Source: Trichoplax sp. H2
Taxonomy: Eukaryota
DNA: 64,000 nt
Direction: 5' to 3'
NCBI GenBank assembly: GCA_003344405.1
Contig: NOWV01000011.1
Span: forward strand, 124,001 to 188,000
This document shows positions 38,248 through 55,653 of the stretch, one piece after another. The notes under the pieces were generated by a model that saw nothing but the letters and a program-made list of their open reading frames with translations, was not told the DNA's origin and made no database searches. Positions within the stretch are counted from its first letter, which is position 1, and each line of letters opens with the position of its first letter. Both the position numbers and the translations under genes were made by a program.

Positions 38248-39875
38248 TCAATAAAGAATTAAATCTACTACACCAAACAAGAGGGATAAGGCAATAACGG
38301 TATAGCCAGTCTTATAAAGCGTCGGTAGATTGAATCCTTTACCCATATCCCATATCTAAATGTTATAAATTGAAGATTGATTACAACTATTAGATCAAGG
38401 ATGTATATAGCTATTTTATCGAAAAATGAATCTTAGAGTAGCTAGCTATGTACAAGTAAAGTCCACGTTAATATCTTACCAAGTGACGGACTCCATTTAT
38501 CGCGTGATAATATAATGGAAAAATAAAGCCACATTTAAGTGTAAAGGGTACTATGGCTGGAAGGGTTTTCCAAACTTCGATATGTTCTGCTAACGTACCA
38601 CTAGACGACATGGTGTATATAGCGAAAGTAGCAGCATCTAAGATAATCATCAGTGACAATTGATTATTACTTTTCACTAGTAATATTGTGGAACGTGATA
38701 TAAAAGTTAATAGTTTTATTGATAATAAAGATGGAAATGTATTAGGAGCAACAGGTCTATAATTTTAGATAAGCATACTAATAATAACACGTACATGCCG
38801 ATAAAATCATTCCACTTGCGCGATGGGTGATTGACATCATCGAAGTAAGCTGAGGCCTAAAGATGGCAGCAATATAAAGAGAGAAGTAAGTTAGGAGTTA
38901 GTTTACTAAGTGCCTTTAACGGAGAAAGGCTAAAAGAAATCATCTTGAATAGCGAGATCAACATGATAGGAACATACTTATAAATAGTTAAATGAGGCGA
39001 CATTGGGCGATTTAAACGCTTATTCTTTTTGAAGAAGTTATCTTCTGACGTACTAGTCGCCGTGGACATTGCAATCCTAATAAAAAGAGTCGTGAGTAGG
39101 AATAAAATGTTACATCTACACTATCTTTAGGACTTGAAGATTTATTGAAGTATTTTCAGTATCGTCCCACAGTAAAAGATCAATAGTCTAGGTGGAGTAG
39201 GCGCACAAATACATATGCGTATAGGCGTATGCATTACTGTACTGTACTATCGATAAAAGGTAGAATGATCTACATTATTAATCATCGTATTTACGTAACG
39301 CCAATGCTTGTTAGCAACAACTGATTTATTTTAAAAGTACTACGTTACATGAGACTTGATATAAACAATATATACATATAACCGAAGCATAGATTGGCTT
39401 TAAGGTAGTAAATCTGGCGTTCAATTTGGAATTTGTTGATTACAGTTATTACCACACGAACCGTTGTCATCTGAGTTCGTAGTGATGTTTCAGTTGAAAA
39501 AGTAACTATCGATTATGTGGCATCACATTGTTAACATGATTGTTAAAGAACATGCTATAGGTAAGGATATAACATTAACATCTCTATACTGATAGCTATA
39601 GTTAGGGCAATCCATAATATATATACAAAAGCTAAGGATGAATTAAAGGATATTTGCCTCAATTACAATAATTAAATTTTACCTTCGAGGAGCTACAGAT
39701 GTCAATCGGACGACCGACAATGAGCTGCCACGCATAAGAAATAGCCGACTTGTGCTAATAAGGATGAAATAATATTCTTTAAAAGTCGTTTTAAATCTTA
39801 ATTATCAATCAATTGACATTACGGGAAAGAATATTGACAAAGTTATAGCATTTACCATATTAGATTGACGGCCAT
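38248..39875 (-). CDS. SDHC: Succinate dehydrogenase cytochrome b560 subunit
   Basis: FFKKNKRLNRPMSPHLTIYK|PQLTSMMSITHRASG; YHAINGVRHL|IWDMGKGFNLPTLYKTGY. Start MAVNLIW at 39875; presequence exons approximate. Confidence 0.95.
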
Positions 39876-40382: not shown

Positions 40383-40590
40383 ATGTTGTGGCAAACTATC
40401 CGGATCAATCCTAGGTTTTGAGCACAACATAAGAGTATATAACCTATCGATGTTGTGGCCAACTATCCTAGATTTTCTAGATAGGTTTTGAGCACAACAT
40501 ACGAGTATATAACCTATAGATGTTGTGGCCAACTATCCTAGGTTTTCCTAGATTGGTTTTGACCACAACATACGAGTATATAACCTATAT
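40383..40590. repeat. Three tandem ~70-bp units, each an imperfect hairpin plus conserved linker
   Basis: Units begin at 40383, 40450 and 40520: ATGTTGTG...CACAACAT inverted ends followed by linker a(a/c)gagtatataacctat. Confidence 0.9.
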
Positions 40591-40764
40591 ATATACACAA
40601 TTCTTTCATCACTCGATAATATTTGTTGCCCAAGCATCTGCCTTTACGTCATTGCCTTCTAAGCATAGGCTTGAGATGACGAATAACTTGATGAGATCGT
40701 CAAGTCTATGATATAGAAACGAAATTGTCTCAGAGCTCAACTAAATCATTGTTGTCGTCCCAAA

Positions 40765-41388
40765 CGTGCCGTGTAATACATTACAATATACCATACTGTC
40801 CAACCGGCGTTCTTATTAATTTTTTGAATCAAACATCTACTTTGCATAGGTCGTGACTTCCTGTTATTTAATGAAATCTTATAACTGATAGATGCCTTTC
40901 TGCAGCCTGATACTGTTGCCAGTCTAAACGTACAATGCAATTGTTACGATGCGTAAGCTCGTCCTAATTATAACTTTAAAAGGATACTTTTATATTATGT
41001 GCACCGGGAGTTTCTGACGAGACTATAAAAGGCTGGTGCCTGAAGATTCCTTTTTAGTTCGTTAGTCGGTTAGATAGTCAACTAGTTTTTCAATTGATAT
41101 TTAATTGTAAAGACTATAATCTTGGGTGCCAAGATTCCTTCAGTAATAAATGATAGTAAATCTCTGACTATCTCGTCTACATCATCTGTGANNNNNNNNN
41201 NNNNNNNNNNNCGTGCCGTGTAATACATTACAATATACCATACTGTCCAACCGGCGTTCTTATTAATTTTTTGAATCAAACATCTACTTTGCAAAGGTCG
41301 TGACTTCCTGTTATTTAATGAAATCTTATAACTGATAGATGCCTTTCTGCAGCCTGATACTGTTGCCAGTCTAAACGTACAATGCAAT
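40765..41388. other. 177-bp direct duplication (40765-40941 and 41212-41388) next to a 20-N assembly gap (41192-41211)
   Basis: The copies differ at one visible base (gcatagg/gcaaagg), and the second starts exactly at the gap edge. Probably a haplotype or assembly artefact. Confidence 0.85.
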
Positions 41389-41930
41389 ATACTGTACATC
41401 TGAACCATAGTACATTCACATTAGATGACATACACAAAATATTTAAGGGTGTTTATTATTCGATGAATATATTCATTGAGCAAATCAAAAAGGGTATTCA
41501 AATCTACGACAAAAAGTATGTCATATTAGATATGTATTGAGAACGAATATAGCATCTCAGTTAATTGGTGTATTCAACAAAGTTATATACAAATCCGGTA
41601 GAGAAACAGTTGACTAATCATTATTTCAAGTCAGTACTGAATTCGAATTAGTGCCGTATCCATTTACTTTATTGCGTGGATCTTGTTTTAAGGCTCTCCA
41701 CACATTGTATCCGGCATTTACAGTACTTTAATTTATTAATTCTGCATTGCAGTAATTTCAAGTCGGTTACCGTTTAATTCATGGCGTATTATGGTACATA
41801 TACAAGCCTGGTAACATCTATCGTATACCTGGTGATGGATATGTTAGATACACTTCAATTTGTTAGCTCTAGAGTAATTTAGCTGAAAAGTGTTAATAAA
41901 ATTATATACGCGCAGAGCGCGATTAAAATG

Positions 41931-42906
41931 TTACCGCTCTAACTTTAAATCGTTTAATTTCTTTGTTATATCTACTTCCGTCTTATTATTACTGCATTTA
42001 GCATTTTTATATCCTTTAGTAACTGGATAGAAAATTTCTCTATTTCCTTTCTTTAGATAGGTTTCCTTGCTTACGTTTGTAGTTGATTTTGTAACACCTA
42101 TTGATTTGGCATTTGTACAGCTAGCAACTTTTTCGGTGTCAACTTTAGCAGTCTGAGCGGGCCTATGCTGCTTACTCATATCTGTTTTATTTACTATTGA
42201 TTTAGAAGTTTGGGTAGCACTTTGATTAATAACATTTAAGCCTAAAGCATCTTGGTCTTTTAACAATTTGGCGTAGACCAGTTGTAATAGTTTAACATCA
42301 GTTAGTGCTCCATGCCCCAGCGATCGCGAAGACTTATCAATATTAAAGCGATCACATAACGAATCAAGTGAGGCTGGTTGTCTCGGATATAATTTTCTAG
42401 CCATCAGCATTGTATCAATAACACGTTCGAAAGATATTTCAGGTATATTCAGTTTTTGAAATTCGTTATTGATAAATTTGATATCGAAATGGCCATTATG
42501 AATGATAAGGGTATCTTCTTGAATAAAGTCACAAAAGTCTTGTACTATCCCATCGAAAGTAGGAAATCCTTCTAGAAATTTGTTCGATAGATGATGTACC
42601 TCAAAGGCCCTTTCTGAGACTGGAAATTTCGGATTGATATAGCATTGGAATGTTCGGCTAGTTGGTTGATGATCGATTAATTCAAGGCAACCAATTTCGA
42701 TTATTCGGTGGCCAGTTCTTACGCTTAAACCAGTAGTTTCGGTATCCAATACCACCTCTCTAAGAGGTGATAAGTTGCTGAAAGATGTTAATTGTCAAAT
42801 TAGCAAAGATTAAAATGTCAGGTAGGTACAGTACTTACTGCACTATTATGGCTAAATGGAATAGAAAGATCATTATTTTGGCTATTCTATCAACGATTAA
42901 AGTCAT
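41931..42906 (-). CDS. dnaQ: Bacterial-type DNA polymerase III epsilon (DnaQ) DEDDh 3'-5' exonuclease with a spliceosomal intron
   Basis: LREVVLDTETTG (ExoI), HNGHFDIKF (ExoII), HGALTD (ExoIII). GT-AG intron 42838-42778 (GTAAGT donor, TTTCAG acceptor) joins in frame to an upstream exon; ATG at 42906 is tentative. About 110-aa S/T/K-rich tail. Confidence 0.9.
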
Positions 42907-45073
42907 AATTATTCCATATTTGCATTGCTCCTCATAGGCAACAGACGGGTTCTCTCCGGTTATTACAAATTACGACTATGTATTCACAATTTTATTTTTT
43001 CATCTTAAGCCTATTTTAAACTTTGCCGAGATATTCACATAGTATCAAAGTTCATTACAGAGTAATTCAGTATCGGGCTCTTTTGTTGATGTCTCTTGAT
43101 GAACGTCGGGACATTAAGGGTTCACTAATCTCTTTTTCGTAAGGCATTGATATAAAATGCTGAGTACTGAAAAGTTAATTTTGCACTGACTTTGTACTGG
43201 CTCGCTTACGACTTAGTAATACAGTACAAGCGCTCGGCTGAAAATATCTTTACATTTGAGTTCAATTTTTAATTGACTTTAGTTCCAATGCGATCTGATT
43301 CAGGTCATAAATTAGTACAATTTGATCGAGACCATTAACTAAGAGTATTAAAAGAGTATATCAGGATAAATGCTCTATAAATTCTAAAATTTATGAATTA
43401 AAGTCGTTAGACCATAGTTGCAACTTCATGACCATTGATCAGTCAGCAAACAGCTCGGACATGGTGCTCAAAAGGTACAAAACTTGAGGAGCTAAGTTGA
43501 TGACAAATTCATCTTAGGAAACCGAAAGCTTTCAGGCTCGGGCTAAATTCGATCTAGTATAATCTAACTTCTACGGCTAAATTTCTGCTATATCATATTA
43601 CCTTTTAGGAGGATCACTAGACATCTTTTCATGAAATATGATTGTCAAATTGCATGCGTGTCGCATAAATCTCGAGGTCTTTCTTATACATGCAATTTGT
43701 GTAAGCATTCCTACCACCTGGAGTACTGTACAGTAGACATCTAATGAAAGTAAAAATGACTTTGAAAGCGATAGTTCAAGCTATGCCGTATCATATTACC
43801 GCGCTGCAATACTGCAATCAATATCACGTAAGCTAGTTGTACTGTACAGTGTAGAGTATACACTACCGTACAGTACAATATTCTATAGTACTGTACTGTA
43901 CGTGATAGCAACAGACGGGATTCGTAACCTGCATACTGCATACTTACGGCAGGAACTAGTATGCATTTTCAAGGAAATCACAGCATGATGCTATACCATA
44001 TCTACTGCAGTTTACTAATATGTGATCAGTAGTTAATTACATGTGCATATCCCTATAGTAGTGTTAAATGATTATAATTCTCGATTTTATCTTAAGCGAC
44101 GATAGCACATTAGAGGATCTACCGTCTATTGCTGTATTGAATAAAGCAAATTGTTTATTAGAATTATATTCTGCCTCAAATAACGTAGTGCTAATACTGC
44201 CCATAATAATTACTCTAAATACAGTAATAGTCGTCACCGCACAGTACTACATCAAATATAGACCGCATCGGCGTAGAACGTTTGAGTAAGTAAGTAAGCA
44301 CTAACTCTTAAATGCCGTAGCAACCAACCCGTTTAACATTCTATACTGTGATCGATGTATCTATAGATCACAGCTGACTGAATATTCAAACCTCACTACT
44401 GTATAGGGTAAAGCTCAATTGTATAGGTCGCTTTCTAGTTAATAAGAGCACACTCAGATTTATGCAGCCATGTTATCGCTGTCTTTCTAGGATATACGTA
44501 GTTATTCCTTTTAAACAGCATAGCAACACCACCACATAAAATTTTCGAACAAATATTACAGAGATGGTTAATAGTTAAAAGTACATACTGTAGGTCCAAA
44601 AATAGGTATAATGAGAACTCCTTTTTAATTTCTTATTATTTCCAAAAATTGAATATTTAATTAAGAGTCTATAACATTCCTATACTCATTCACTTTCGTA
44701 AATATTTTTACATTTAAAATTCTGAAATTTAGCATCCACACATGTGGCATGTACAACACAGTCGATAGTAACGTCTGATATAATCGGAACTGACATGTGT
44801 CTATATACAGCATAAAATAATGTAAGTACTGTATTTAAAGTAATTTAAACAACTGCATGCTTCGTAGTGAAATAAAATTATGGAACAAAACTAGGCTTTC
44901 TGCCCTAAAGAAATTAATTATCAGACGAGCAAACACGTATACGTATATATATATATATACACTGAATTTACTTTTTGTTTAGATCTCGTAACTTTATGCA
45001 TACTCCAAATAATTAGTTTAAGATAACGGATTATGCATATTAATCGATACTATTGTTATATCATAGTGCAAAT

Positions 45074-48000
45074 TTACTCAAGTGTGTAGTTAAAAAGGGT
45101 TGTCGATCTCCAACTAAGAAGACGCACTACTACGAATGATAACAGTAGAACTCCCAAACCAATGAAGAAAATACCGGTCTGAAACGAAAATTTTTAAATT
45201 GATTAACAAAAATCAATAATAAGATAGATCCTAATCATGAAAACATCTTACTTGCAATGAAGGATTTGGGACAAGAAACATCTTTAAATCAACAGATTGC
45301 CACCTAAAAATATCAAATTTAATTTTAGTCTCATCTTTGGAACATAAATGTCGATCTATAGTCAGGTCTAATTTATAGAATGCAACAAGCATACCTGCTT
45401 TCAGCCCAAGTTGAATAATTTTTAGATTTATAGTCTTTAAGTAAAAATGCAGGAGATACAGCAGGCGAATAATAAACGGTACCCCTATAGCACACGTTTT
45501 TAAAATCTTGTCCTTGAAACCATAAATAATTATATGCCTAGTACAAAGCAATTTCATTAGGGGGATTTCAAGGTATCTTAATCAGCCTAAATTTTAACAT
45601 AGTTCATTTAATACTTACAGAGTTGTCTGACGTATTAGATTTACAATTGCTCTGCTTGGTTACATCAGCCAACTGATTTCCAGTAAAATACATCATTAAA
45701 TGGTTAGTTAAATTCGTGACTTGATTAGGGCTTTGAGATACTCCCACCATACGAGGATACGCTGATGATGCTATTTAATTTAAATTAAAATCAACTGTTA
45801 AGCTCTATATCCATTCTAAGGATTGTAGCCATCTTTTGCGATCTACTTACGTAAATTTTTAGCATTACTATTCGAAACAACCTGCTGAAAGAGGGTGCAT
45901 GATGCATTCTGAAGGAAACAGTGTAGCAACTCTGAGGTCTATAATAAAACATGCGAAAAATATTAATATTGTACCGGTAATATTATTAACGCAATTTGAA
46001 CGGAGTAATTACTACTAAGAGCTTACCATATCTTCATCTGCTGTTATTTTCGACAGGTCAGGAGTAGGATTAGAATCAGAAGCCAACATATAAAGAGTTC
46101 TTGCAACAGTTGTTGCCAATCTGGTTAGACGCTGCAAACAAGTGTGGAGTCAGCCCGGTTACAGTTCTTACATTGTAGTTACCTTTATTTTTTAGCAAGT
46201 AGATTTAGGATCGAATTTATACCTTTGATAATGAATTTGGATCTCGCAATCCCTGTGAAGATAGCTTATCCATTACTTGGTTCAAAGAATCATAATGGCT
46301 GTTATAATAGCTAAAAAACGAAAGTAGCTTTCAATTCGATAATATTTTCTCAATCGTATGAAACGATATCTATAGCGAAGGTTATCAAATTTATCTTACG
46401 CATTCGTAAAATTTTTTTTATGATCAGTTAATACGAGGCCAGATAGTCCACTATCTTTACGAAGAAACCTTTGTACTGAAGCTGGTGGAAGAGGCAAATC
46501 ATTGGATGCCTTACTAATATTAACTCCAGCACCAGTTCCCGCTTTTACCAATGCAGCGAAAAAAGCATCATTCTAAAACGGTAGACCCGAAATTTCTTGT
46601 GATACATGATTGATCATGCACAGATAAAAATTAAAGAATCAAGAGAATAAAATAATTTTGATACATACCCTCGATTTATCACCACTAGATGGGTCAAAGT
46701 GAGCCCATAAGGATTTTTCATCTTCCAGTCCTACCTGTCTAAGTTCTAAAAATTGACCAATGTTTTTCAATGTAATATTAGCCGGCCAATCCTAAAATGA
46801 ATCAAGTCAAATATTAGAAAGTTGAATTGTTAACACTCTGTTAATGCTAATTTGCCTTAGAATTGCCTGGAAACATTCCACTCTCCATATCATATACCAT
46901 CCTTGAGGATCCAATGTAGTCCCAGCTTTCCTAAATTTAATATAAATTCATCGTTATGGTAATAAATTATCACTAGATGCATTGATAAAGTCAATGATCG
47001 CATACTCCTTGAAAAAATGCAAACATAATAGGCTTTTTCGGCTTCGTTAGCTTATTCTAGAGAAATTAAAATAGTAAGTAGTTAGCATAGCAAACAATAG
47101 TCGCTGACTACAAATAAAGTTTAAACAAACCGAATTTTTGGCTTTACCCAAGGCATATGCTGCAGATAATAAAGTTATGAAGCCTGAAGCATCATTATCA
47201 GTTCCTGGTGCAAAGTTGTAAAACTGGGATATGGAATCCAACTATAAGTTTAAAAGTTAGCTTAATCATTAATTTATGACTAGTACTGCTTTGATAACAT
47301 TGCTATAACATTAAACACTAAACCGATAGCAATGATAATACATTACAGAAACATTTTTTGTACTTTGTGCGTAAATGTATACATTGAAGAGATCTCGTAA
47401 ATTAAGCTATACTGTACTGTAGTACTGGGTAGGCTATCAATGACTGATATACCTGTGCCGCTGCAATTATGAGTTCCCTTTCTTTAAGAGGGTTATTCAT
47501 TGGATATAGTGTCGACCATACATTACTATCGCCAAGGGGATCACAAAATCCTATTACGTAGTATTAAAATAGCCAAATTATGCGTTAATTCTAATGCTTC
47601 CCTATACAGATTCTTACAATATTCATACCTCCAGATGTTAATGAACCAGCAATATTTCTACGCATGCAAACTTCAGTATTAGAAGGAGTAAACATGAAAT
47701 CTCCCATTTGTACCGCACACAACGGATAAATTAGCTCTCCCTTGCTTGTAGGCATATTATGCTTATGGTAGCACTACAATGAGATTTTGTTCAGTGGTTT
47801 TAGTTTAATACCGGATACGGTAGCATTATGTTACGTAAGTTTCTATATCTACTAATAAATCTCGGCTAGTACGCTTGTAACTCATATATACGTATAGGAT
47901 ATAAAACCTGTTTTAGTCTTTGAATGTCATCCTCCATATAAACACGGAATATAGGAAAATCGAAACTTTTGTATAACATTCCACTTCCCTTTTTAGTGCA

Positions 48001-49659
48001 AAATACATCGATAAAGTGCATTAAAGTAACTGAAAGCAATACCAATTTATCTTTACGCTGTAGAGTAAGCTTACATGAGGATTCCACTCTATTCTTTTGC
48101 AACTCTGATATTGGCTATTGTCAACGTACATGCCTAAATAGTTAAGTGAATATAATTAATGGCTTCGAAAGCATTAGTTGGATATATCTATGAAATAATT
48201 ACGATTACTTTAATTTCTCTAAATTATTTTACCGAAGCCATCGTTGGGACATGGTTTATCAGGAGAATAAGCTAATATAAATGTAATTATAAAGTTTCAC
48301 CAATTTGATAGTCATTTAAATTAGGCAAATATGATTACTATTTGAAAAAATATTAAGGAATGATTATAATATATGCCTATAGTAGTAGAAATACCGTCAG
48401 GAATTTCTTTATCATCAGAAGCAGTATCATTAGCTCCTAGTATAATGATTCCAGCAATCTTTCGCTTACTCATTAAGAAATTGACGTTGTCTCTGTAAGG
48501 AGATTTAATACATAATTAAGTTTTGATTAGTAGATAAGCGATATTAAGTAATGCATTTATGCTGTGATTATGTAGGATTATAGTTAGACGTAAAAGAATT
48601 TTTCAAAACGTATCATTTTATTGCTTTGGTGCAATTTATCGGTAAAGTTCGCCATCATGCAGTTAATCACATCATATTGAATTAATTAATTATAGATTAT
48701 TGTAATACTAGAGGAATAGATGCATTATTTACTACTTACAAATTAAATAACTTTGGAGTCATTAACGGAACATAATCAATATCAAGCTTGCTTGTAGCTA
48801 ATTTATTCATATCAGAAAAACTCTCCACCAAGTGTAAGACGCCAACATTTCGCCAGTACTTGGCTATAGGAAGTACATAAAAAATTTATCCATATAATAC
48901 AATGCATGTTAGATATCTATTTTAACTTTTAAAATTTCTGAACTATATAGAACTACAGCTTTTAACTTTACTCGTATCATTGATATTTTGTGCAATGATG
49001 ATATTAACCTTAAACGTCAACAATAGTGATAAGCAATTAGCATAGTACTGTGTCATTGTTACTTACAGGTGCATCCAATGCTGTGATTCTTATTGGTGTA
49101 CCTGACGCAATAATTAAATGAGGTGATATCACGGTATACCAGTTTATTCACTGTTTGGCCGTGAGCAACTGTCCAAAAAATGAGTCAAGATTAAGAACGG
49201 TACTACTTCTTTATCTCTTGTCAAATACAAGTAATCTATTTTTCGATTCAATTGGTAGAAATACGGTTACAACAAGGTTGTAATAATAGTGATGAGCAGT
49301 AATATAGCCACCGTTGTTCATTGATAGTACTACATTTAACTCTAAATTTACCTTACTCTTATTAATTACAATGACTAAGTAGCATACTTTTGGTTTATAC
49401 CATATATCAAATACGTAATCAATTCTACTATACAGTACTGTGATCATGACTGAATTCCATTTCTTCTCATTGTTCGTTTCCATCGAGCGAAATCAATTCT
49501 ACGTGTATGTACATACCAAACTCGTAAACTAATGGATTGAAAACTGATCTAATTCTATATGCTACAGATATTAAGGCATATAATCCAGTGATTACCGTGA
49601 CATATCAAGATTAACCAAGCAAGCCGTAGTAGAAATCGATCACAACAGTTGGGCTTCAT
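45074..49659 (-). CDS. NCSTN: Nicastrin (gamma-secretase subunit), multi-exon
   Basis: Signal peptide MKPNCCDRFLLRLAWLILICHG; CVRYTNKNHSIGC; CDPLGDSNVW; APGTDNDASGFITLLSAA; ESWDYIGSSRMVYDM (DYIGS motif); LPPASVQRFLRK; C-terminal TM GIFFIGLGVLLLSFVVV; stop at 45074. Confidence 0.95.
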
Positions 49660-50297: not shown

Positions 50298-51401
50298 ATG
50301 CTATCGCCAGAGGTAAGATTAAGATAACATTCTTAACGTACTACTGTAAGCGTATTATGCCACCATCCTAAGTATACACGAAAAGTGATTCCTAGAACAA
50401 CGTCATTAATTTTACTAGGGATAGTCGATTAAGTCTTGAGAGATAAAAGCTTTCATAGAAGTGCTTAATAATCAATACTTTAATGTGAACTTTGAGTAAT
50501 TTTTAGTTAGCCTCTAGTGCAATCATGCTCTTACTTAGTATTGTAGAGACCTAGACGTGATATCAATTGTTGTTGCACTATTGCATTGCAATTTTCAATA
50601 GTATATTATAATAAAATGTACGAGTATGTATAGTACATATTTTTAAGATTATTTACGAAGGTATGAACGAGTACCAACGATTAAATACAAAGAGAGTCTA
50701 GACTATTTATACAATAACTACCAGTATCATATAAGTTTATACATACGTGAACGTAATAGAAGTATAAAATTATGATGCCTTTACATCAAGCAATTAATTT
50801 ATTAGTAACTCTTCTAATTACTGCTTGAACATCATTAGAATGGAAGAGTATAAGTTGCAGTATTACACGTATACAACTGCAGTTGGTGACAATTACATAA
50901 ATCACGTTTTGCTTAAATTATAACACACTAATAAGTATGAATACACGCTTGCAGTATAGAGATAGTGCTAGAGGCGCTTCAAAAACAATTAAGGAAGTTT
51001 TACCCAAGTGTGGTATGCTGTTTGCTGAAGAAGGTGCTCAAGCTGTAAGTTTATCTTTAAAACAGATATTATTATGTCCGATGTGTAAAGAATTTAACTG
51101 CATTGCATTATGTATTTACAAGATTCTTTGCAAACCGAAATTAATGCCTTTGAAATCGGTTACACTTGAAAAACTAGATAAGATGCAAAAAGAGGCAAGT
51201 ATTATATTATAGTTGATCGTCAACTATCATCAGTTATTTCCTTTTTCGTAGTATTAATGCTGCATATAAACCTCCATTCCACTTATCACCTATTAAATAA
51301 TGTTTGCAAAACTATCGATCCAATAATATATTTAGGCTCAAGAAACTGTTAAGCAACAGGAACTTCAAAAATTAGCTGAGGAAGAAGAAAAGATCGCTTG
51401 A
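50298..51401 (+). CDS. BBIP1: BBSome-interacting protein 1 (BBIP10/BBS18)
   Basis: Exons 50298-50312 (tentative), 50955-51044 (IKEVLPKCGMLFAEE), 51123-51194 (ILCKPKLMPLKSVTLEKLDKMQKE) and 51336-51401 (AQETVKQQE..*). Confidence 0.93.
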
Positions 51402-52288: not shown

Positions 52289-53344
52289 TTACGCTGTTTT
52301 TGCAAATTTCTTCCACTGATCAACATACGCAGCTCCAGATGTTGTCAGAAATGTGTTATATGTGTTTCTAAGAGGAGGGAGATCTAACTCTGGTTGATGA
52401 GCAGGAAAGGCATATTTATCTCTACCTGTAATGTTTTAAATCGTAATATATATATCATTTATCAAGAAATTTGAGATATTTGATACTGGAATAACTAATT
52501 TTTCATAGCCTATTTTAAAACACAATCTAGCAGTCCAAATTATGGTATCTTTTCAAATACTACTTCGTTAATTATAATCACGCTATTTTACGGCTTACTT
52601 TTTAACTTGCGAACTTGGTGGTCGATTTCTGGGGACTTTTTCGAAACGTATTCGACATTGTAGGTGGTTTCATAGTAGTGAGAAAACTATACAAGAATAA
52701 CAACTGGGGTTTTAATGTTTATTTTAAATGTAAATAATTTTTATTCTAAATCAAGTAATGCACTTTTACTGCAATAAAAAACTGTAAATCGTTATCGCTA
52801 GCTATTAATAATATAATGTACGTTCATATATTGTTATAATTTTTTTGATTAATGTTAATATAATTATTATAAATCATATTACTGCATTGATAAGGATCGT
52901 TTCACTAATATATTGGATAAGCGGATGTATGATCACACTGCTTCAACTATAGCCAACATTATAGCGTAAAGGAAAAAACTATGAATTCTATATAGTTACG
53001 ATTATATAATCACTGTTATACACATTCCATTTTATATATATATGACATACGAGTATATTGGTCATAAAACCAATTAACTTATTCATATGTAAGACAACAT
53101 TATTTAATGATCGTCATTCACTTACCCGTGATGGTAGGCATTTTCTTTTACTTACGCTAGTAAGATCTAGCTTTTCTTCCACCCAGTTACCTACTAGTAC
53201 TCCCTTCCGATAGACATCATCGCGTTTACCAGATCTCCAGCCGAATTGACTAAATTTATTTTTGTCTGTGTGATCCCAAACTTCTCCTTGGGTTGTAGCC
53301 CTCACATAACTCATAAAAGGCAAATCTGTTTGGTTTTGAGCCAT
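52289..53344 (-). CDS. CFAP68: CFAP68 / C11orf1 (UPF0686)-like protein, 3 coding exons
   Basis: KFSQFGWR..VLVGNWVEEK; FSHYYETTY; YAFPAHQPELDLP; stop TAA at 52289. Confidence 0.85.
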
Positions 53345-53457
53345 CTTATGCAAATTAAAGCTTTTACTACAGGTAAGTATGTTTTATAAATTGAACAGCG
53401 GGGCTAACAACATGTCATATACGCACTAACTTCCTATGACTTGGTGGGAAGCCCAAA

Positions 53458-54514: not shown

Positions 54515-55653
54515 ATGGTTCTTGATGGTGAATATTATGCCGCTACAACTATTGTAGTGACTACTCTAATCATTTATTATGGTCGTGACTTGCACTTAAA
54601 AACTTTGAGCCACTGTCAGTATCTTCCAACTGTATTTGCTATAATATTTAGTTGGCATCGTGGCACTCTGCAATCTTTATTACATCGAGCTCTTTTATTA
54701 AATCAAAGCTATCAGGTACACAGTACACAGCTTAAGTTAACTTCACTGGTTTTTTTAAAATAGTTTTAATTATGATATTCTACATAAATTATGGCGTAAT
54801 CGCTTGTTTTATAGTCATTAGAGATCATAATAGGTACAGCCTTAGTAATCCTTATTATGTAGCATTCTGCTGTTTCATAAAGCATATCCAAACTATTGCT
54901 ATGTCGATTTAAGAATCGATAACGTATCAACAATTAAGCGTTTACATAACATAAAATTTTTTGTTGTGATTTCTTAACTTAAATAGAAAAAGCTGATAAG
55001 AAAGATATTCCATATAACTGAACTATATTAAATTTTGGGTTGATTATTTTAATAAGGTTATCGGGCTTCATATAATGCAAGGGATTACGATAGCTGCAGC
55101 TTCCATTGGACTAGTAGCAATGCTAGATGTCTTTTTGGGCTGGGGTATCATTAAGCAAAGTAAAAACTCAAACACTATTTTTGGACCAAACACAATTTCG
55201 AATTATGGCATCTTTAGTTTATTGAGAGCTTTTGGAGAAGAATTTGGTTGGCGCTGCTATCTCATGCCGATACTTTTGGCAAAATACAACGTCATGGAAA
55301 CATTATTTATTAGTGGTATCATCTGGGCATTATTTCATATTCCAATTATGATATTACTAACTGCTAGATATGAAGTTGAAAGACCGTTGTATACCTGGGT
55401 GCTGCAAGGCTTATCTGTATTTCTTGACGCTTATGTATTTGGTTGGTTATCAATCCAGACAAATTACTCCCTATGGGCTGCAGGATCATTTCATGCTGCA
55501 TGGAATTTCATTAATCCAATTGTGTTGGGTAGCGTATATACAAATACAGATGGCATTATTAAAGGAGAACTATGGAAAATTAACGGTGAAGGCTTAGCTG
55601 GTTGTATTGTTAGTCTTATGATGATTTATTTAATACAGTTAAATATATCTTAG
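54515..55653 (+). CDS. CPBP/Abi (type II CAAX protease-like) intramembrane protease of bacterial appearance
   Basis: GEEFGWRCYL (EExxxR), WALFHIP and FHAAWNF (HxxxN). Exon 54515-54715 joins in frame (phase 0) to exon 55057-55653 through a GT-AG intron. Confidence 0.8.

What the first reader, a model, noticed from the sequence alone, without database searches (positions are those of the whole stretch)
41931..42906. Rickettsiales-like dnaQ integrated and intronised in an animal chromosome
Seen: LREVVLDTETTGL..GHRIIEIGCLELI..YINP..HNGHFDIKFIN..IDTMLMARK..ASLDSLCDRFNID..HGALTD, with all DEDDh residues intact. It has a 61-nt GT-AG intron, is contiguous on its 5' side with the nicastrin gene, and has a host-type TACAG array upstream (~43720-43900). 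Known: this pattern is typical of alphaproteobacterial (Rickettsia/Wolbachia-type) Pol III epsilon, not animal TREX/ERI/REXO, and placozoans carry Rickettsiales endosymbionts. Inference: a domesticated symbiont-derived proofreading nuclease, possibly for organellar DNA maintenance or clearing foreign DNA.
Basis: partly seen in the sequence, partly recalled or inferred. Interest (0 to 1): 0.82.

Follow-up and report, generated by a model that had tools for sequence, protein, structure and literature searches.

The report
Bacterial dnaQ exonuclease gene in Trichoplax
A placozoan (Trichoplax) chromosome carries an expressed, spliced gene for a bacterial-type DNA proofreading exonuclease that kept its catalytic core but lost the tail that ties it to the bacterial replicase, so it is a likely old bacterium-to-animal gene transfer working as a stand-alone nuclease.

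Summary
The dnaQ-like ORF is real: minus strand, 41931-42777, with all five DEDDh residues. It scores above the NCBIfam Pol III epsilon equivalog cut-off (221.3 against 196 bits). The spliced CDS equals Trichoplax sp. H2 protein RDD46033.1 letter for letter and is 99% identical to T. adhaerens TRIADDRAFT_55196, so the gene is already annotated.

It is not contamination. An RNA contig splices it, a DNA-like run covers it at the depth of neighbouring nicastrin, and that run shows a half-depth two-allele site in the intron.

The acceptor (42778) is right, but the donor lies at 43601/43602, giving an 824-nt intron rather than 61 nt. The proposed ATG at 42906 lies in the intron and reads TTG in another run.

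No close donor was found. Identity to bacteria is 40-58%. The Trichoplax rows and one unnamed ENA protein form a clade (100/98) in an unresolved alphaproteobacterial polytomy. A tie to Anaplasmataceae is neither supported nor rejected (AU p 0.26).

The exonuclease domain keeps 59 of 65 conserved columns. The Pol III-binding tail keeps 0 of 5. The best reading is an old transfer, now a stand-alone 3'-5' exonuclease whose cellular target is unknown.

The parts
43602..43708 (-). Exon 1, coding part (35 codons plus 2 nt: MLTQIACIRKTSRFMRHACNLTIIFHEKMSSDPPK). A new N-terminal extension with no bacterial counterpart. The first ATG after an in-frame stop is at 43708-43706; further in-frame ATGs are codons 15 and 29.
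   Evidence: The RNA contig of run X13 carries 87 nt of this exon (43602 to about 43689) joined to exon 2. The H2 model P0122 starts at this ATG and the H1 model P0002 at codon 29. The join translates exactly to P0122. Transcript cover of the first 19 nt, including the first ATG, is not shown.
42778..43601 (-). Spliceosomal intron, 824 nt, GT..AG. It lies between the new exon and the bacterial-derived ORF. Neighbouring nicastrin introns are 73-91 nt.
   Evidence: Joint 42777->43602, 'skips 824', ends CT..AC on the plus strand, run X13 depth 21.7. Splice-site letters AAAAG|GTAATA and TTTCAG|CAAC. Nicastrin intron lengths.
42839..42906 (-). It lies inside the intron and is not supported.
   Evidence: No joint at 42838/42778 in the 4 runs laid. 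Position 42906 is T>A on the plus strand (ATG to TTG) in run X1, 84.1 of 84.1 depth.
42240..42764 (-). DEDDh 3'-5' exonuclease domain (residues 41-215 of the 317-aa product). L41 stands where bacterial homologues have their start Met. Catalytic codons: D47 42746-42744, E49 42740-42738, D134 42485-42483, H191 42314-42312, D196 42299-42297.
   Evidence: Pfam, NCBIfam and PDB matches. Invariant columns. AlphaFold2 pLDDT is at least 89 in every 10-residue block across residues 41-210. 59 of 65 columns conserved at 85% or more in 38 bacterial rows are kept.
41934..42239 (-). C-terminal tail (residues 216-317). Low-complexity, Lys/Ser/Thr/Asn-rich, predicted disordered. It stands in place of the clamp-binding motif and the alpha-binding segment of bacterial epsilon, carrying a 24-residue insertion and a roughly 20-residue extension.
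   Evidence: All 5 conserved tail columns of the bacterial rows (Q, R, E, H, W) are changed. pLDDT is under 50 for 221-317. Composition. Alignment.
41931..41933 (-). Stop codon TAA.
41447..41930 (-). 3' untranslated region (minimum extent).
   Evidence: RNA-run contigs reach 41493 (X13), 41525 (X15) and 41447 (X18).
43839..43910 (.). Imperfect GTACA/TACAG-type host repeat upstream of exon 1. Run X1 differs structurally from the window here.
   Evidence: Repeat family D2. One exact TACAGTACAG at 43891-43900. Joints and loose ends in X1 at 43838-43901.
44618..48114 (-). Context: 3' part of the host nicastrin gene, same strand, ending about 900 nt upstream of dnaQ exon 1.
   Evidence: Pfam Nicastrin hits. 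Eight GT..AG joints in runs X13, X15 and X18; transcripts end at 44618-44664.

Best explanation
This is a nuclear Trichoplax gene that descends from a bacterial, alphaproteobacterial-type dnaQ (Pol III epsilon) by an old lateral transfer. The bacterial ORF survives as one 847-nt exon. It gained a host 5' exon and an 824-nt spliceosomal intron just upstream of the former start codon, plus a 3' UTR, and its base composition now matches the host. The catalytic DEDDh core is under purifying selection. The C-terminal peptide that tethers epsilon to the Pol III alpha subunit and the beta clamp has degenerated into a disordered tail. The product therefore most likely works as a stand-alone, metal-dependent 3'-5' exonuclease on DNA ends, not as a replicase subunit. 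Shown: nuclear location, splicing, transcription, family, intact motifs, loss of tail motifs, sequence constraint. Inferred: enzymatic activity, independence from Pol III, age of the transfer. Unknown: substrate and compartment. The basic N-terminal extension is compatible with a mitochondrial presequence, but that is not shown.
For: Family: NF004316 221.3 bits against a cut-off of 196; E. coli epsilon 1.8e-37; 7811 homologues, with all named ones in the top 120 bacterial except Trichoplax and one Wolbachia-like insect record.

Host location:
- The spliced RNA contig has a GT..AG joint.
- The DNA-like run X1 covers dnaQ at depth 84.1 and nicastrin at 75.5.
- A two-allele bubble at 43195 shows 45.3 and 41.8.
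- A paper reports about 5-fold lower coverage for the symbiont than for the host (PMC6879607, passages).
- The same gene lies on an 8.16-Mb H1 scaffold and a 1.03-Mb H2 contig.
- CDS GC3 is 0.286 against 0.277 for nicastrin.
- 0 of 39 flanking ORFs hit any Pfam family, so no other bacterial remnant is visible.

Constraint:
- Run X1 shows 0 differences in 954 coding nt against 16 in the other 2434 nt of 41230-44617. The chance of that under a uniform rate is 0.005.
- All catalytic residues are kept in Trichoplax and in the 65%-identical ENA protein P0003.
- 59 of 65 conserved domain columns are kept against 0 of 5 tail columns (Fisher p 4e-5).

Age: no bacterial hit exceeds 58% identity. The clade with P0003 has 100/98 support on a stem of 0.57. 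The clade shares a one-residue insertion before the catalytic His and shares G>S, G>H and L>C changes at conserved columns.
Against: No enzymatic, localisation or protein-level data exist.
- The three amino-acid differences between H1 and H2 are all nonsynonymous, and no synonymous count for exon 2 could be made.
- TIGR01406 misses its cut-off narrowly (220.0 against 222.7).
- Trichoplax differs at 6 near-invariant domain columns (G76S, G98H, L118C, A131G, L159M, G168R), which might affect activity.
- The origin of P0003 is unknown, so 'old transfer' rests on an unlabelled sequence.
- Absence of a DnaE partner in the host could not be tested, because no whole genome is held.
- The DNA-like run leaves about 100 nt at the upstream repeat (43789-43887) unbridged in the listed pieces.
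Confidence: 0.75

Rival explanations
1. The gene came specifically from a Rickettsiales endosymbiont of placozoans, possibly an ancestor of today's Grellia/RETA lineage.
For: Placozoans carry Rickettsiales symbionts (PMC3641634 abstract and passages; PMC6879607 passages). Wolbachia DnaQ is among the hits at 52-54% identity. Forcing the placozoan clade together with 9 Anaplasmataceae costs 14.4 lnL and is not rejected (AU p 0.259).
Against: The free trees do not join them. Anaplasmataceae form their own clade (100/96). Rickettsiales bacterium Ac37b and the placozoan clade fall separately into the polytomy. The nearest rows are unnamed or 'Alphaproteobacteria MAG' (91/52). Similarity is flat, 40-53%, across 287 of 301 sampled genomes of the class. 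No Rickettsiaceae, Midichloriaceae proper or Grellia sequence was available under a name, so the test is incomplete. AT-rich long branches may attract each other.
Confidence: 0.25
2. It is a vertically inherited eukaryotic gene of mitochondrial (endosymbiotic) origin that most lineages have lost. It would then not be a placozoan-specific transfer.
For: It is placed among alphaproteobacteria without a close donor. Nuclear dnaQ-annotated genes exist sporadically in other eukaryotes, for example one in Paulinella with a predicted mitochondrial transit peptide (PMC9450145, passages). The basic N-terminal extension has 5 K+R and 1 D+E in its first 28 residues.
Against: Among the named proteins in the best 120, the only non-Trichoplax eukaryote label is a Wolbachia-like record (76% to wBm). 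The other named rows are bacterial. This reading would need very many independent losses. No eukaryote DnaQ homologues were put in the tree, so it was not directly tested.
Confidence: 0.08
3. It is a transcribed relic: a transferred gene that is spliced and expressed but no longer has a useful activity.
For: The tail has degenerated. Six near-invariant domain positions are changed. All three H1/H2 differences are nonsynonymous. RNA contig depth is modest, 21.7 against 97.5 for nicastrin in X13, and contig depth is a poor measure of expression.
Against: The 317-codon frame is open. All five catalytic residues are kept in two lineages that are 35% diverged in the domain. There are no differences in the CDS against 16 in the flanks in run X1.
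Confidence: 0.08
4. It is symbiont contamination or a chimeric assembly join.
For: A 20-N gap lies 720 nt downstream, flanked by a 177-nt duplicate. The upstream repeat is not bridged by the listed contigs of run X1.
Against: The mRNA is spliced to an upstream exon. Depth is at host level. A heterozygous site lies in the intron. Two independent assemblies carry the gene. No bacterium is more than 58% identical. Host-type repeats lie on both sides.
Confidence: 0.02
5. The host-encoded epsilon is delivered to the bacterial endosymbiont (or to a bacterial-type replicase) and still proofreads for a Pol III alpha subunit, as a form of host control.
For: One precedent of this kind is reported: Paulinella has a nuclear dnaQ-annotated gene with a chromatophore transit peptide, which its authors consider possibly non-functional (PMC9450145, passages). 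Trichoplax has an added N-terminal extension.
Against: 0 of 5 conserved columns of the clamp- and alpha-binding tail are kept, including the nearly invariant Trp (37/38) and His (35/38). No import pathway into Rickettsiales symbionts is known to me (recalled).
Confidence: 0.03

Closest known systems
Bacterial DNA polymerase III epsilon subunit (DnaQ; E. coli 5fku_D/1j53; NCBIfam NF004316, TIGR01406)
   Same: Same DEDDh fold and motifs (Exo I DxE, Exo II D, Exo III-epsilon HxxxxD). 221 bits to the equivalog model. 33% identity to E. coli epsilon in the 9-row alignment and 40-58% to alphaproteobacterial DnaQ.
   Different: It is encoded in an animal nucleus with a spliced 5' exon. The clamp-binding Gln and the C-terminal alpha-binding segment (R, E, H, W columns) are lost and replaced by a tail about 100 residues long and disordered. 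It has a one-residue insertion before the catalytic His and a 40-residue N-terminal addition. The clamp motif QTSMAF of E. coli epsilon is taken from PMC11139829 (passages). The role of the C-terminal segment in binding alpha is recalled knowledge.
Reported bacteria-to-Trichoplax gene transfers (Driscoll et al. 2013: BPL_N_1/2, dapF, murA, rsmE, phrB_1-4, GNAT_1-2, mhpC)
   Same: Bacterial-type genes on large eukaryotic scaffolds of T. adhaerens. Two of them (BPL_N) have an intron (PMC3641634, passages).
   Different: dnaQ is not among the 18 genes named in the passages seen (0 occurrences of dnaQ, epsilon or 55196 in the main text). Supplementary tables could not be opened. Ten of their 12 genes are described as recent and intron-less, whereas this one is far diverged from any donor.
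Nuclear-encoded dnaQ-annotated genes of Paulinella micropora (one with a mitochondrial, one with a chromatophore transit peptide)
   Same: A eukaryotic nuclear gene of putative bacterial origin annotated as Pol III epsilon with an added N-terminal targeting extension (PMC9450145, passages).
   Different: It is a different host (an amoeba with a young organelle). No sequence comparison was made here. Targeting of the Trichoplax protein is not shown.
Animal DEDDh nucleases TREX1/TREX2 (stand-alone 3'-5' DNA exonucleases)
   Same: The likely mode of action: a stand-alone DnaQ-like 3'-5' exonuclease in an animal cell (recalled knowledge of TREX; not tested here).
   Different: Not a member. The closest matches are bacterial epsilon models, and no TREX chain is among the 10 PDB sequences matched at E<=0.001.

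Membership tests
DEDDh (DnaQ-like / RNase_T, PF00929) exonuclease superfamily | Exo I (DxE), Exo II (D) and Exo III-epsilon (H-x4-D) acidic/His residues in order | tested here: met
   D47, E49, D134, H191 and D196 are invariant in 41 rows. PF00929 3.7e-29, 102.8 bits against a cut-off of 24.
DEDDh (DnaQ-like / RNase_T, PF00929) exonuclease superfamily | Compact alpha/beta RNase H-like fold | tested here: met
   The AlphaFold2 model gives block-mean pLDDT 89-98 across residues 41-210, with the strand/helix order expected for the fold. No structural search was run.
Pol III epsilon subunit (NCBIfam equivalogs NF004316 / TIGR01406) | Whole-protein score above the curated equivalog cut-off | tested here: inconclusive
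   NF004316 221.3 against 196 (met). TIGR01406 220.0 against 222.7 (narrowly missed). Both matches stop at profile position 209-210 of 231-234, so the tail is unmatched.
Pol III epsilon subunit (functional holoenzyme member) | Beta-clamp-binding motif (Q-x-x-[LM]-x-[FL]) directly after the exonuclease domain | tested here: not met
   The Gln conserved in 35 of 38 bacterial rows is Asp in Trichoplax and Thr in P0003. A nearby QDALGL string exists in Trichoplax but is out of register and absent from P0003.
Pol III epsilon subunit (functional holoenzyme member) | C-terminal alpha(PHP)-binding segment (R..E...H...L..I.NPLW in alphaproteobacteria) | tested here: not met
   The R, E, H and W columns are changed to Q, K, C and T in Trichoplax. 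A 24-residue insertion splits the segment.
Pol III epsilon subunit (functional holoenzyme member) | A DnaE (alpha) partner encoded in the same genome | not testable with these tools
   No whole genome is held for the window.
Rickettsiales-derived gene | Nests within Rickettsiales in a supported phylogeny | tested here: inconclusive
   It is outside the named Anaplasmataceae clade in the free tree, but the constraint is not rejected (AU p 0.259). Named Rickettsiales available were 9 Anaplasmataceae and bacterium Ac37b only.
Functional bacterium-to-animal lateral gene transfer | Physical integration in the host chromosome at host copy number | tested here: met
   Depth 84.1 against 75.5 for nicastrin and a half-depth allele pair at 43195 in run X1. 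Two assemblies carry the gene.
Functional bacterium-to-animal lateral gene transfer | Transcription with eukaryotic processing | tested here: met
   GT..AG joint 42777->43602 in an RNA-run contig in which nicastrin is also spliced. A poly(A) tail was not examined.
Functional bacterium-to-animal lateral gene transfer | Purifying selection / retained activity | tested here: inconclusive
   0 coding against 16 non-coding differences in X1 (p 0.005) and conserved catalytic residues. No dN/dS and no assay.

The most novel reading that the evidence does not exclude
The placozoan lineage captured a bacterial replicase proofreader, stripped it of its replicase tether and gave it a basic N-terminal presequence. 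It now serves as an organelle-directed exonuclease, most plausibly in mitochondria, where it would help maintain or degrade the unusually large placozoan mtDNA. It would be an animal analogue of plant organellar DnaQ-type nucleases, arrived at by lateral transfer.
Probability: 0.2. Interest if true: 0.7.

Novelty: new member of a known kind. Interest (0 to 1): 0.5.

Why it matters
Functional bacterium-to-animal gene transfers are few, and transfers of core DNA-replication parts are rarer still. This is a clean example in an early-branching animal that lives with intracellular bacteria. The bacterial ORF is intact as one exon and fitted with a host exon and intron. It is selectively maintained in its catalytic half and has decayed exactly where it used to bind its bacterial partners. 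That pattern makes a clear, testable prediction: a free-standing 3'-5' exonuclease. It also offers a natural experiment on how a replisome subunit is repurposed. The gene is already annotated in public records. The new points are its reading as an old transfer, the corrected gene structure and the loss of the tail. I found no paper describing it (searches; main texts only).

Tried and rejected
- **Whole-genome search of the window's own assembly:** none is held.
- **The search for related loci in genome contigs:** only one locus, an Alphaproteobacteria MAG at 50%.
- **The search for related loci in metagenome contigs with P0003:** only a 38%-identical bacterial locus. The DNA context and origin of P0003 therefore stay unknown.
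- **Reaching a labelled Rickettsiales sample through genome handles:**
  - 20 small-genome matches were fetched and compared with Wolbachia wBm DnaQ.
  - The best, G066, was 59.5% identical.
  - Its GTDB order holds 18 genomes, none closer than 59% to Wolbachia.
  - So it is not Wolbachia's order, and that route was dropped.
- **Labelling tree neighbours:** two cluster-member runs gave few names, namely Puniceispirillum/Pelagibacter, Gromoviella, Tectomicrobia and Wolbachia.
- **The 61-nt intron:** no joint in the 4 runs laid. Contigs drop rare variants, so rare use is not excluded.
- **Transcript cover beyond 43689:** no contig seen, so use of the first ATG is open.
- **Flanking ORFs:** 0 of 39 ORFs in the flanks and intron hit Pfam.
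- **The two tails:** no significant similarity between the Trichoplax and P0003 tails; only an 8-residue match at E 1.1.
- **N-terminal extension:** it has no confident structure (pLDDT 51-58, no helix). No targeting predictor was available, and the charge count and hydrophobic moment are only suggestive.
- **Not run:** a structural search of the model and a complex prediction, because the sequence evidence already decides the family.
Full report
**What is there.** It is a DnaQ-type DEDDh exonuclease:
- Pfam RNase_T, 3.7e-29.
- NCBIfam NF004316 'DNA polymerase III subunit epsilon', 221.3 bits, above its equivalog cut-off of 196.
- TIGR01406 dnaQ_proteo, 220.0 bits, just under its cut-off of 222.7.
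- The best solved relative is E. coli epsilon, 5fku_D, 1.8e-37.
- D47, E49, D134, H191 and D196 (numbering of the 317-aa product) are invariant in a 41-row alignment.
- An AlphaFold2 model is confident over residues 41-215 and disordered before and after.

**Whose gene it is.** The best database match is TRIADDRAFT_55196 of Trichoplax adhaerens, 99% identical, on an 8.16-Mb scaffold. Its 90% cluster also holds RDD46033.1 of Trichoplax sp. H2, 317 aa, on a 1.03-Mb contig and named 'DNA polymerase III subunit epsilon'. The two-exon CDS of the window translates exactly to that H2 protein. The gene is therefore annotated already. H1 and H2 differ at three residues: S31G, C118R and K278R.

**Gene structure.** Public runs were laid on 41230-46700.
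- *Spliced form.* In run X13 nicastrin is spliced at eight joints, so X13 is RNA. One of its contigs (depth 21.7) covers 41493-42777 and then continues at 43602. It skips 824 nt with GT..AG on the minus strand.
- *Supporting contig.* A contig of the recorded RNA run X15 stops exactly at 42777.
Its ATG is TTG in run X1. No run shows the 61-nt joint. Both public models use the distal exon.
- *Exon 1.* It adds 35 residues (MLTQ...DPPK) that have no bacterial counterpart.
- *Position of the intron.* It sits seven codons upstream of L41, which aligns with the start Met of bacterial DnaQ. The bacterial ORF itself is a single exon, so the 'intronisation' is the capture of a host 5' exon.
- *What is not shown.* The contig reaches only 43689. 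Use of the first ATG (43708) rather than codon 15 or 29 is therefore open.
- *Weak coding signal in exon 1.* Both differences that X13 shows in exon 1 are synonymous (codons 17 and 25).
- *Intron size.* Neighbouring nicastrin introns are 73-91 nt, so the 824-nt intron is unusually long for this locus.

**Host or contaminant.**
- Run X1 behaves as genomic DNA. It covers all 30 bins, retains the introns and has a flat depth.
- It covers dnaQ at 84.1 and nicastrin at 75.5.
- At 43195, inside the dnaQ intron, it shows two alleles at 45.3 and 41.8, as a diploid host locus would.
- The CDS has GC 0.354 and GC3 0.286. The nicastrin exons have 0.372 and 0.277.
- TACAGTACAG occurs 24 times in the window against 0.09 expected, on both sides of the gene.
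- None of 39 short ORFs in the flanks and intron hits a Pfam family.
- Caveats: the listed X1 contigs leave about 100 nt at the 43.8-43.9 kb repeat unbridged, where X1 differs structurally from the window. The 20-N gap at 41192-41211 is flanked by a 177-nt duplicate.

Taken together, contamination or a chimeric join is very unlikely.

**Constraint.** In X1 all 16 single-base differences between 41230 and 44617 lie outside the 954 coding bases. The chance of that under a uniform rate is 0.005. Within the single 1676-nt contig, 8 of 8 differences are non-coding (p 0.004). The three H1/H2 differences are nonsynonymous, and a synonymous count for exon 2 was not possible.

**Relatives and donor.**
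- *Similarity.* Apart from Trichoplax, the nearest protein is P0003, an unnamed 278-aa ENA protein on a 2.8-kb contig. It is 65% identical over the domain, and Trichoplax is its best hit in return.
- *Shared derived features.* The two share a one-residue insertion before the catalytic His and a tail of the same length. They also share identical G>S, G>H and L>C changes at columns conserved in bacteria.
- *Bacterial matches.* All other matches are bacterial at 40-58% identity. 287 of 301 sampled genomes of the class of an Alphaproteobacteria MAG match at E<=1e-20, with identities of 40-53% and no outlier. That tally includes two genomes flagged unpublished, from which nothing else was used.
- *Careful tree.* It has 55 rows and 230 columns under LG+C20 PMSF, rooted on E. 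coli only. Trichoplax H1, H2 and P0003 form a clade (100/98) on a stem of 0.57, inside a polytomy. The weak sister is an 'Alphaproteobacteria bacterium' MAG (91/52). The nine named Anaplasmataceae form their own clade (100/96), and Rickettsiales bacterium Ac37b stands apart.
- *Quick tree.* With 107 rows it gave the same picture. Its neighbours are long-branched, AT-rich lineages later labelled Puniceispirillum/Pelagibacter, Gromoviella (Holosporales) and Tectomicrobia.
- *AU test.* Forcing the placozoan clade and Anaplasmataceae together costs 14.4 lnL, p-AU 0.259, so it is not rejected.
- *Conclusion.* The gene is alphaproteobacterial-type and the donor is unresolved. The Rickettsiales claim is neither supported nor refuted. 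No Grellia, Midichloria or Rickettsia sequence was available under a name, and beta/gamma sampling was minimal.

**What changed in the protein.**
- 70 columns are conserved at 85% or more in 38 bacterial rows.
- 65 of them lie in the exonuclease domain, and Trichoplax keeps 59.
- 5 lie in the C-terminal part: the Gln of the clamp-binding motif and the R, E, H and W of the terminal segment. Trichoplax keeps none and P0003 keeps one. Fisher p is 4e-5.
- In E. coli the motif after the domain (QTSMAF) binds the beta clamp (PMC11139829, passages). The terminal segment binds the alpha subunit (recalled).
- The placozoan tail has a 24-residue insertion and a roughly 20-residue extension, and it is predicted disordered.
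- The tail is basic in Trichoplax (20 K+R, 9 D+E) but acidic in P0003 (13 and 17). The two tails share no significant similarity.

**Reading.** The catalytic half is maintained and the partner-binding half has decayed. That is the pattern expected if the protein no longer serves a Pol III core but works alone as a 3'-5' exonuclease. Activity, substrate and compartment are inferred or unknown. The N-terminal extension has 5 K+R and 1 D+E in its first 28 residues. That is compatible with a mitochondrial presequence, but the model shows no helix there and no predictor was available. I put mitochondrial targeting at about 0.2-0.35.

**Literature.** In the main text of Driscoll et al. 2013, 'dnaQ', 'epsilon' and '55196' do not occur. 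The 18 large-scaffold genes named there do not include it (PMC3641634, passages). Its supplements could not be opened. Searches found no paper holding TRIADDRAFT_55196 or describing a placozoan dnaQ. Neither Kamm et al. 2019 nor the 2026 placozoan microbiome preprint mentions gene transfer or a polymerase. A partial precedent is Paulinella, with nuclear dnaQ-annotated genes that carry predicted mitochondrial or chromatophore transit peptides (PMC9450145, passages).

**Verdict.** This is a new, well-behaved member of a known kind (functional bacterium-to-animal transfer), and the loss of the replicase-binding tail is the informative part. Interest 0.5.

Noticed in passing
window 40765-41388: The 20-N gap (41192-41211) is flanked by a 177-nt direct repeat (40765-40941 and 41212-41388, 99%). 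An RNA-run contig laid on the second copy continues with the sequence that follows the first copy. This may be an assembly duplication or a real tandem repeat.
   Followed up: partly
window, 24 sites from 24722 to 61816: The 10-mer TACAGTACAG occurs 24 times against 0.09 expected by shuffling. It clusters near 40.3, 49.7-50.0 and 61.3 kb and looks like a dispersed host microsatellite-like motif.
   Followed up: partly
window 40403-40592: About three tandem units of roughly 70 nt (80-95% alike) lie just downstream of the gap region.
   Followed up: no
window 38468-38764 (-), 50901-51212 (+), 53114-53383 (-), 55018-55653 (+): Other host gene pieces: an Sdh_cyt-like ORF below the Pfam cut-off (22 against 25.8 bits), BBIP10, CFAP68 and an Rce1-like CAAX protease.
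   Followed up: no
window 42931-43408 (dnaQ intron): Low-depth contigs in RNA runs lie inside the intron (X13 42931-43312 at depth 5.66; X15 43210-43408 at depth 2.3). They may be unspliced pre-mRNA, DNA carry-over or a separate transcript.
   Followed up: no
window 43839-43901: The DNA-like run X1 shows a back-joint with 26 other letters and several loose ends here. The upstream repeat therefore differs in structure between that sample and the window.
   Followed up: no
proteins P0105, P0106, P0136, P0365, P0368: Some Wolbachia DnaQ proteins (for example from Homalodisca vitripennis) carry an N-terminal leucine-rich-repeat region fused to the exonuclease domain.
   Followed up: no
protein P0123 (611 aa): An unnamed protein with five DnaQ-like stretches in tandem, several of them partial, scored second to the query in the representative search.
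   Followed up: no
protein P0003 (ENA, 278 aa): The only close relative of the Trichoplax protein outside Trichoplax. It starts at the ancestral bacterial Met and has an acidic low-complexity tail. Its organism and genomic context are unknown.
   Followed up: partly
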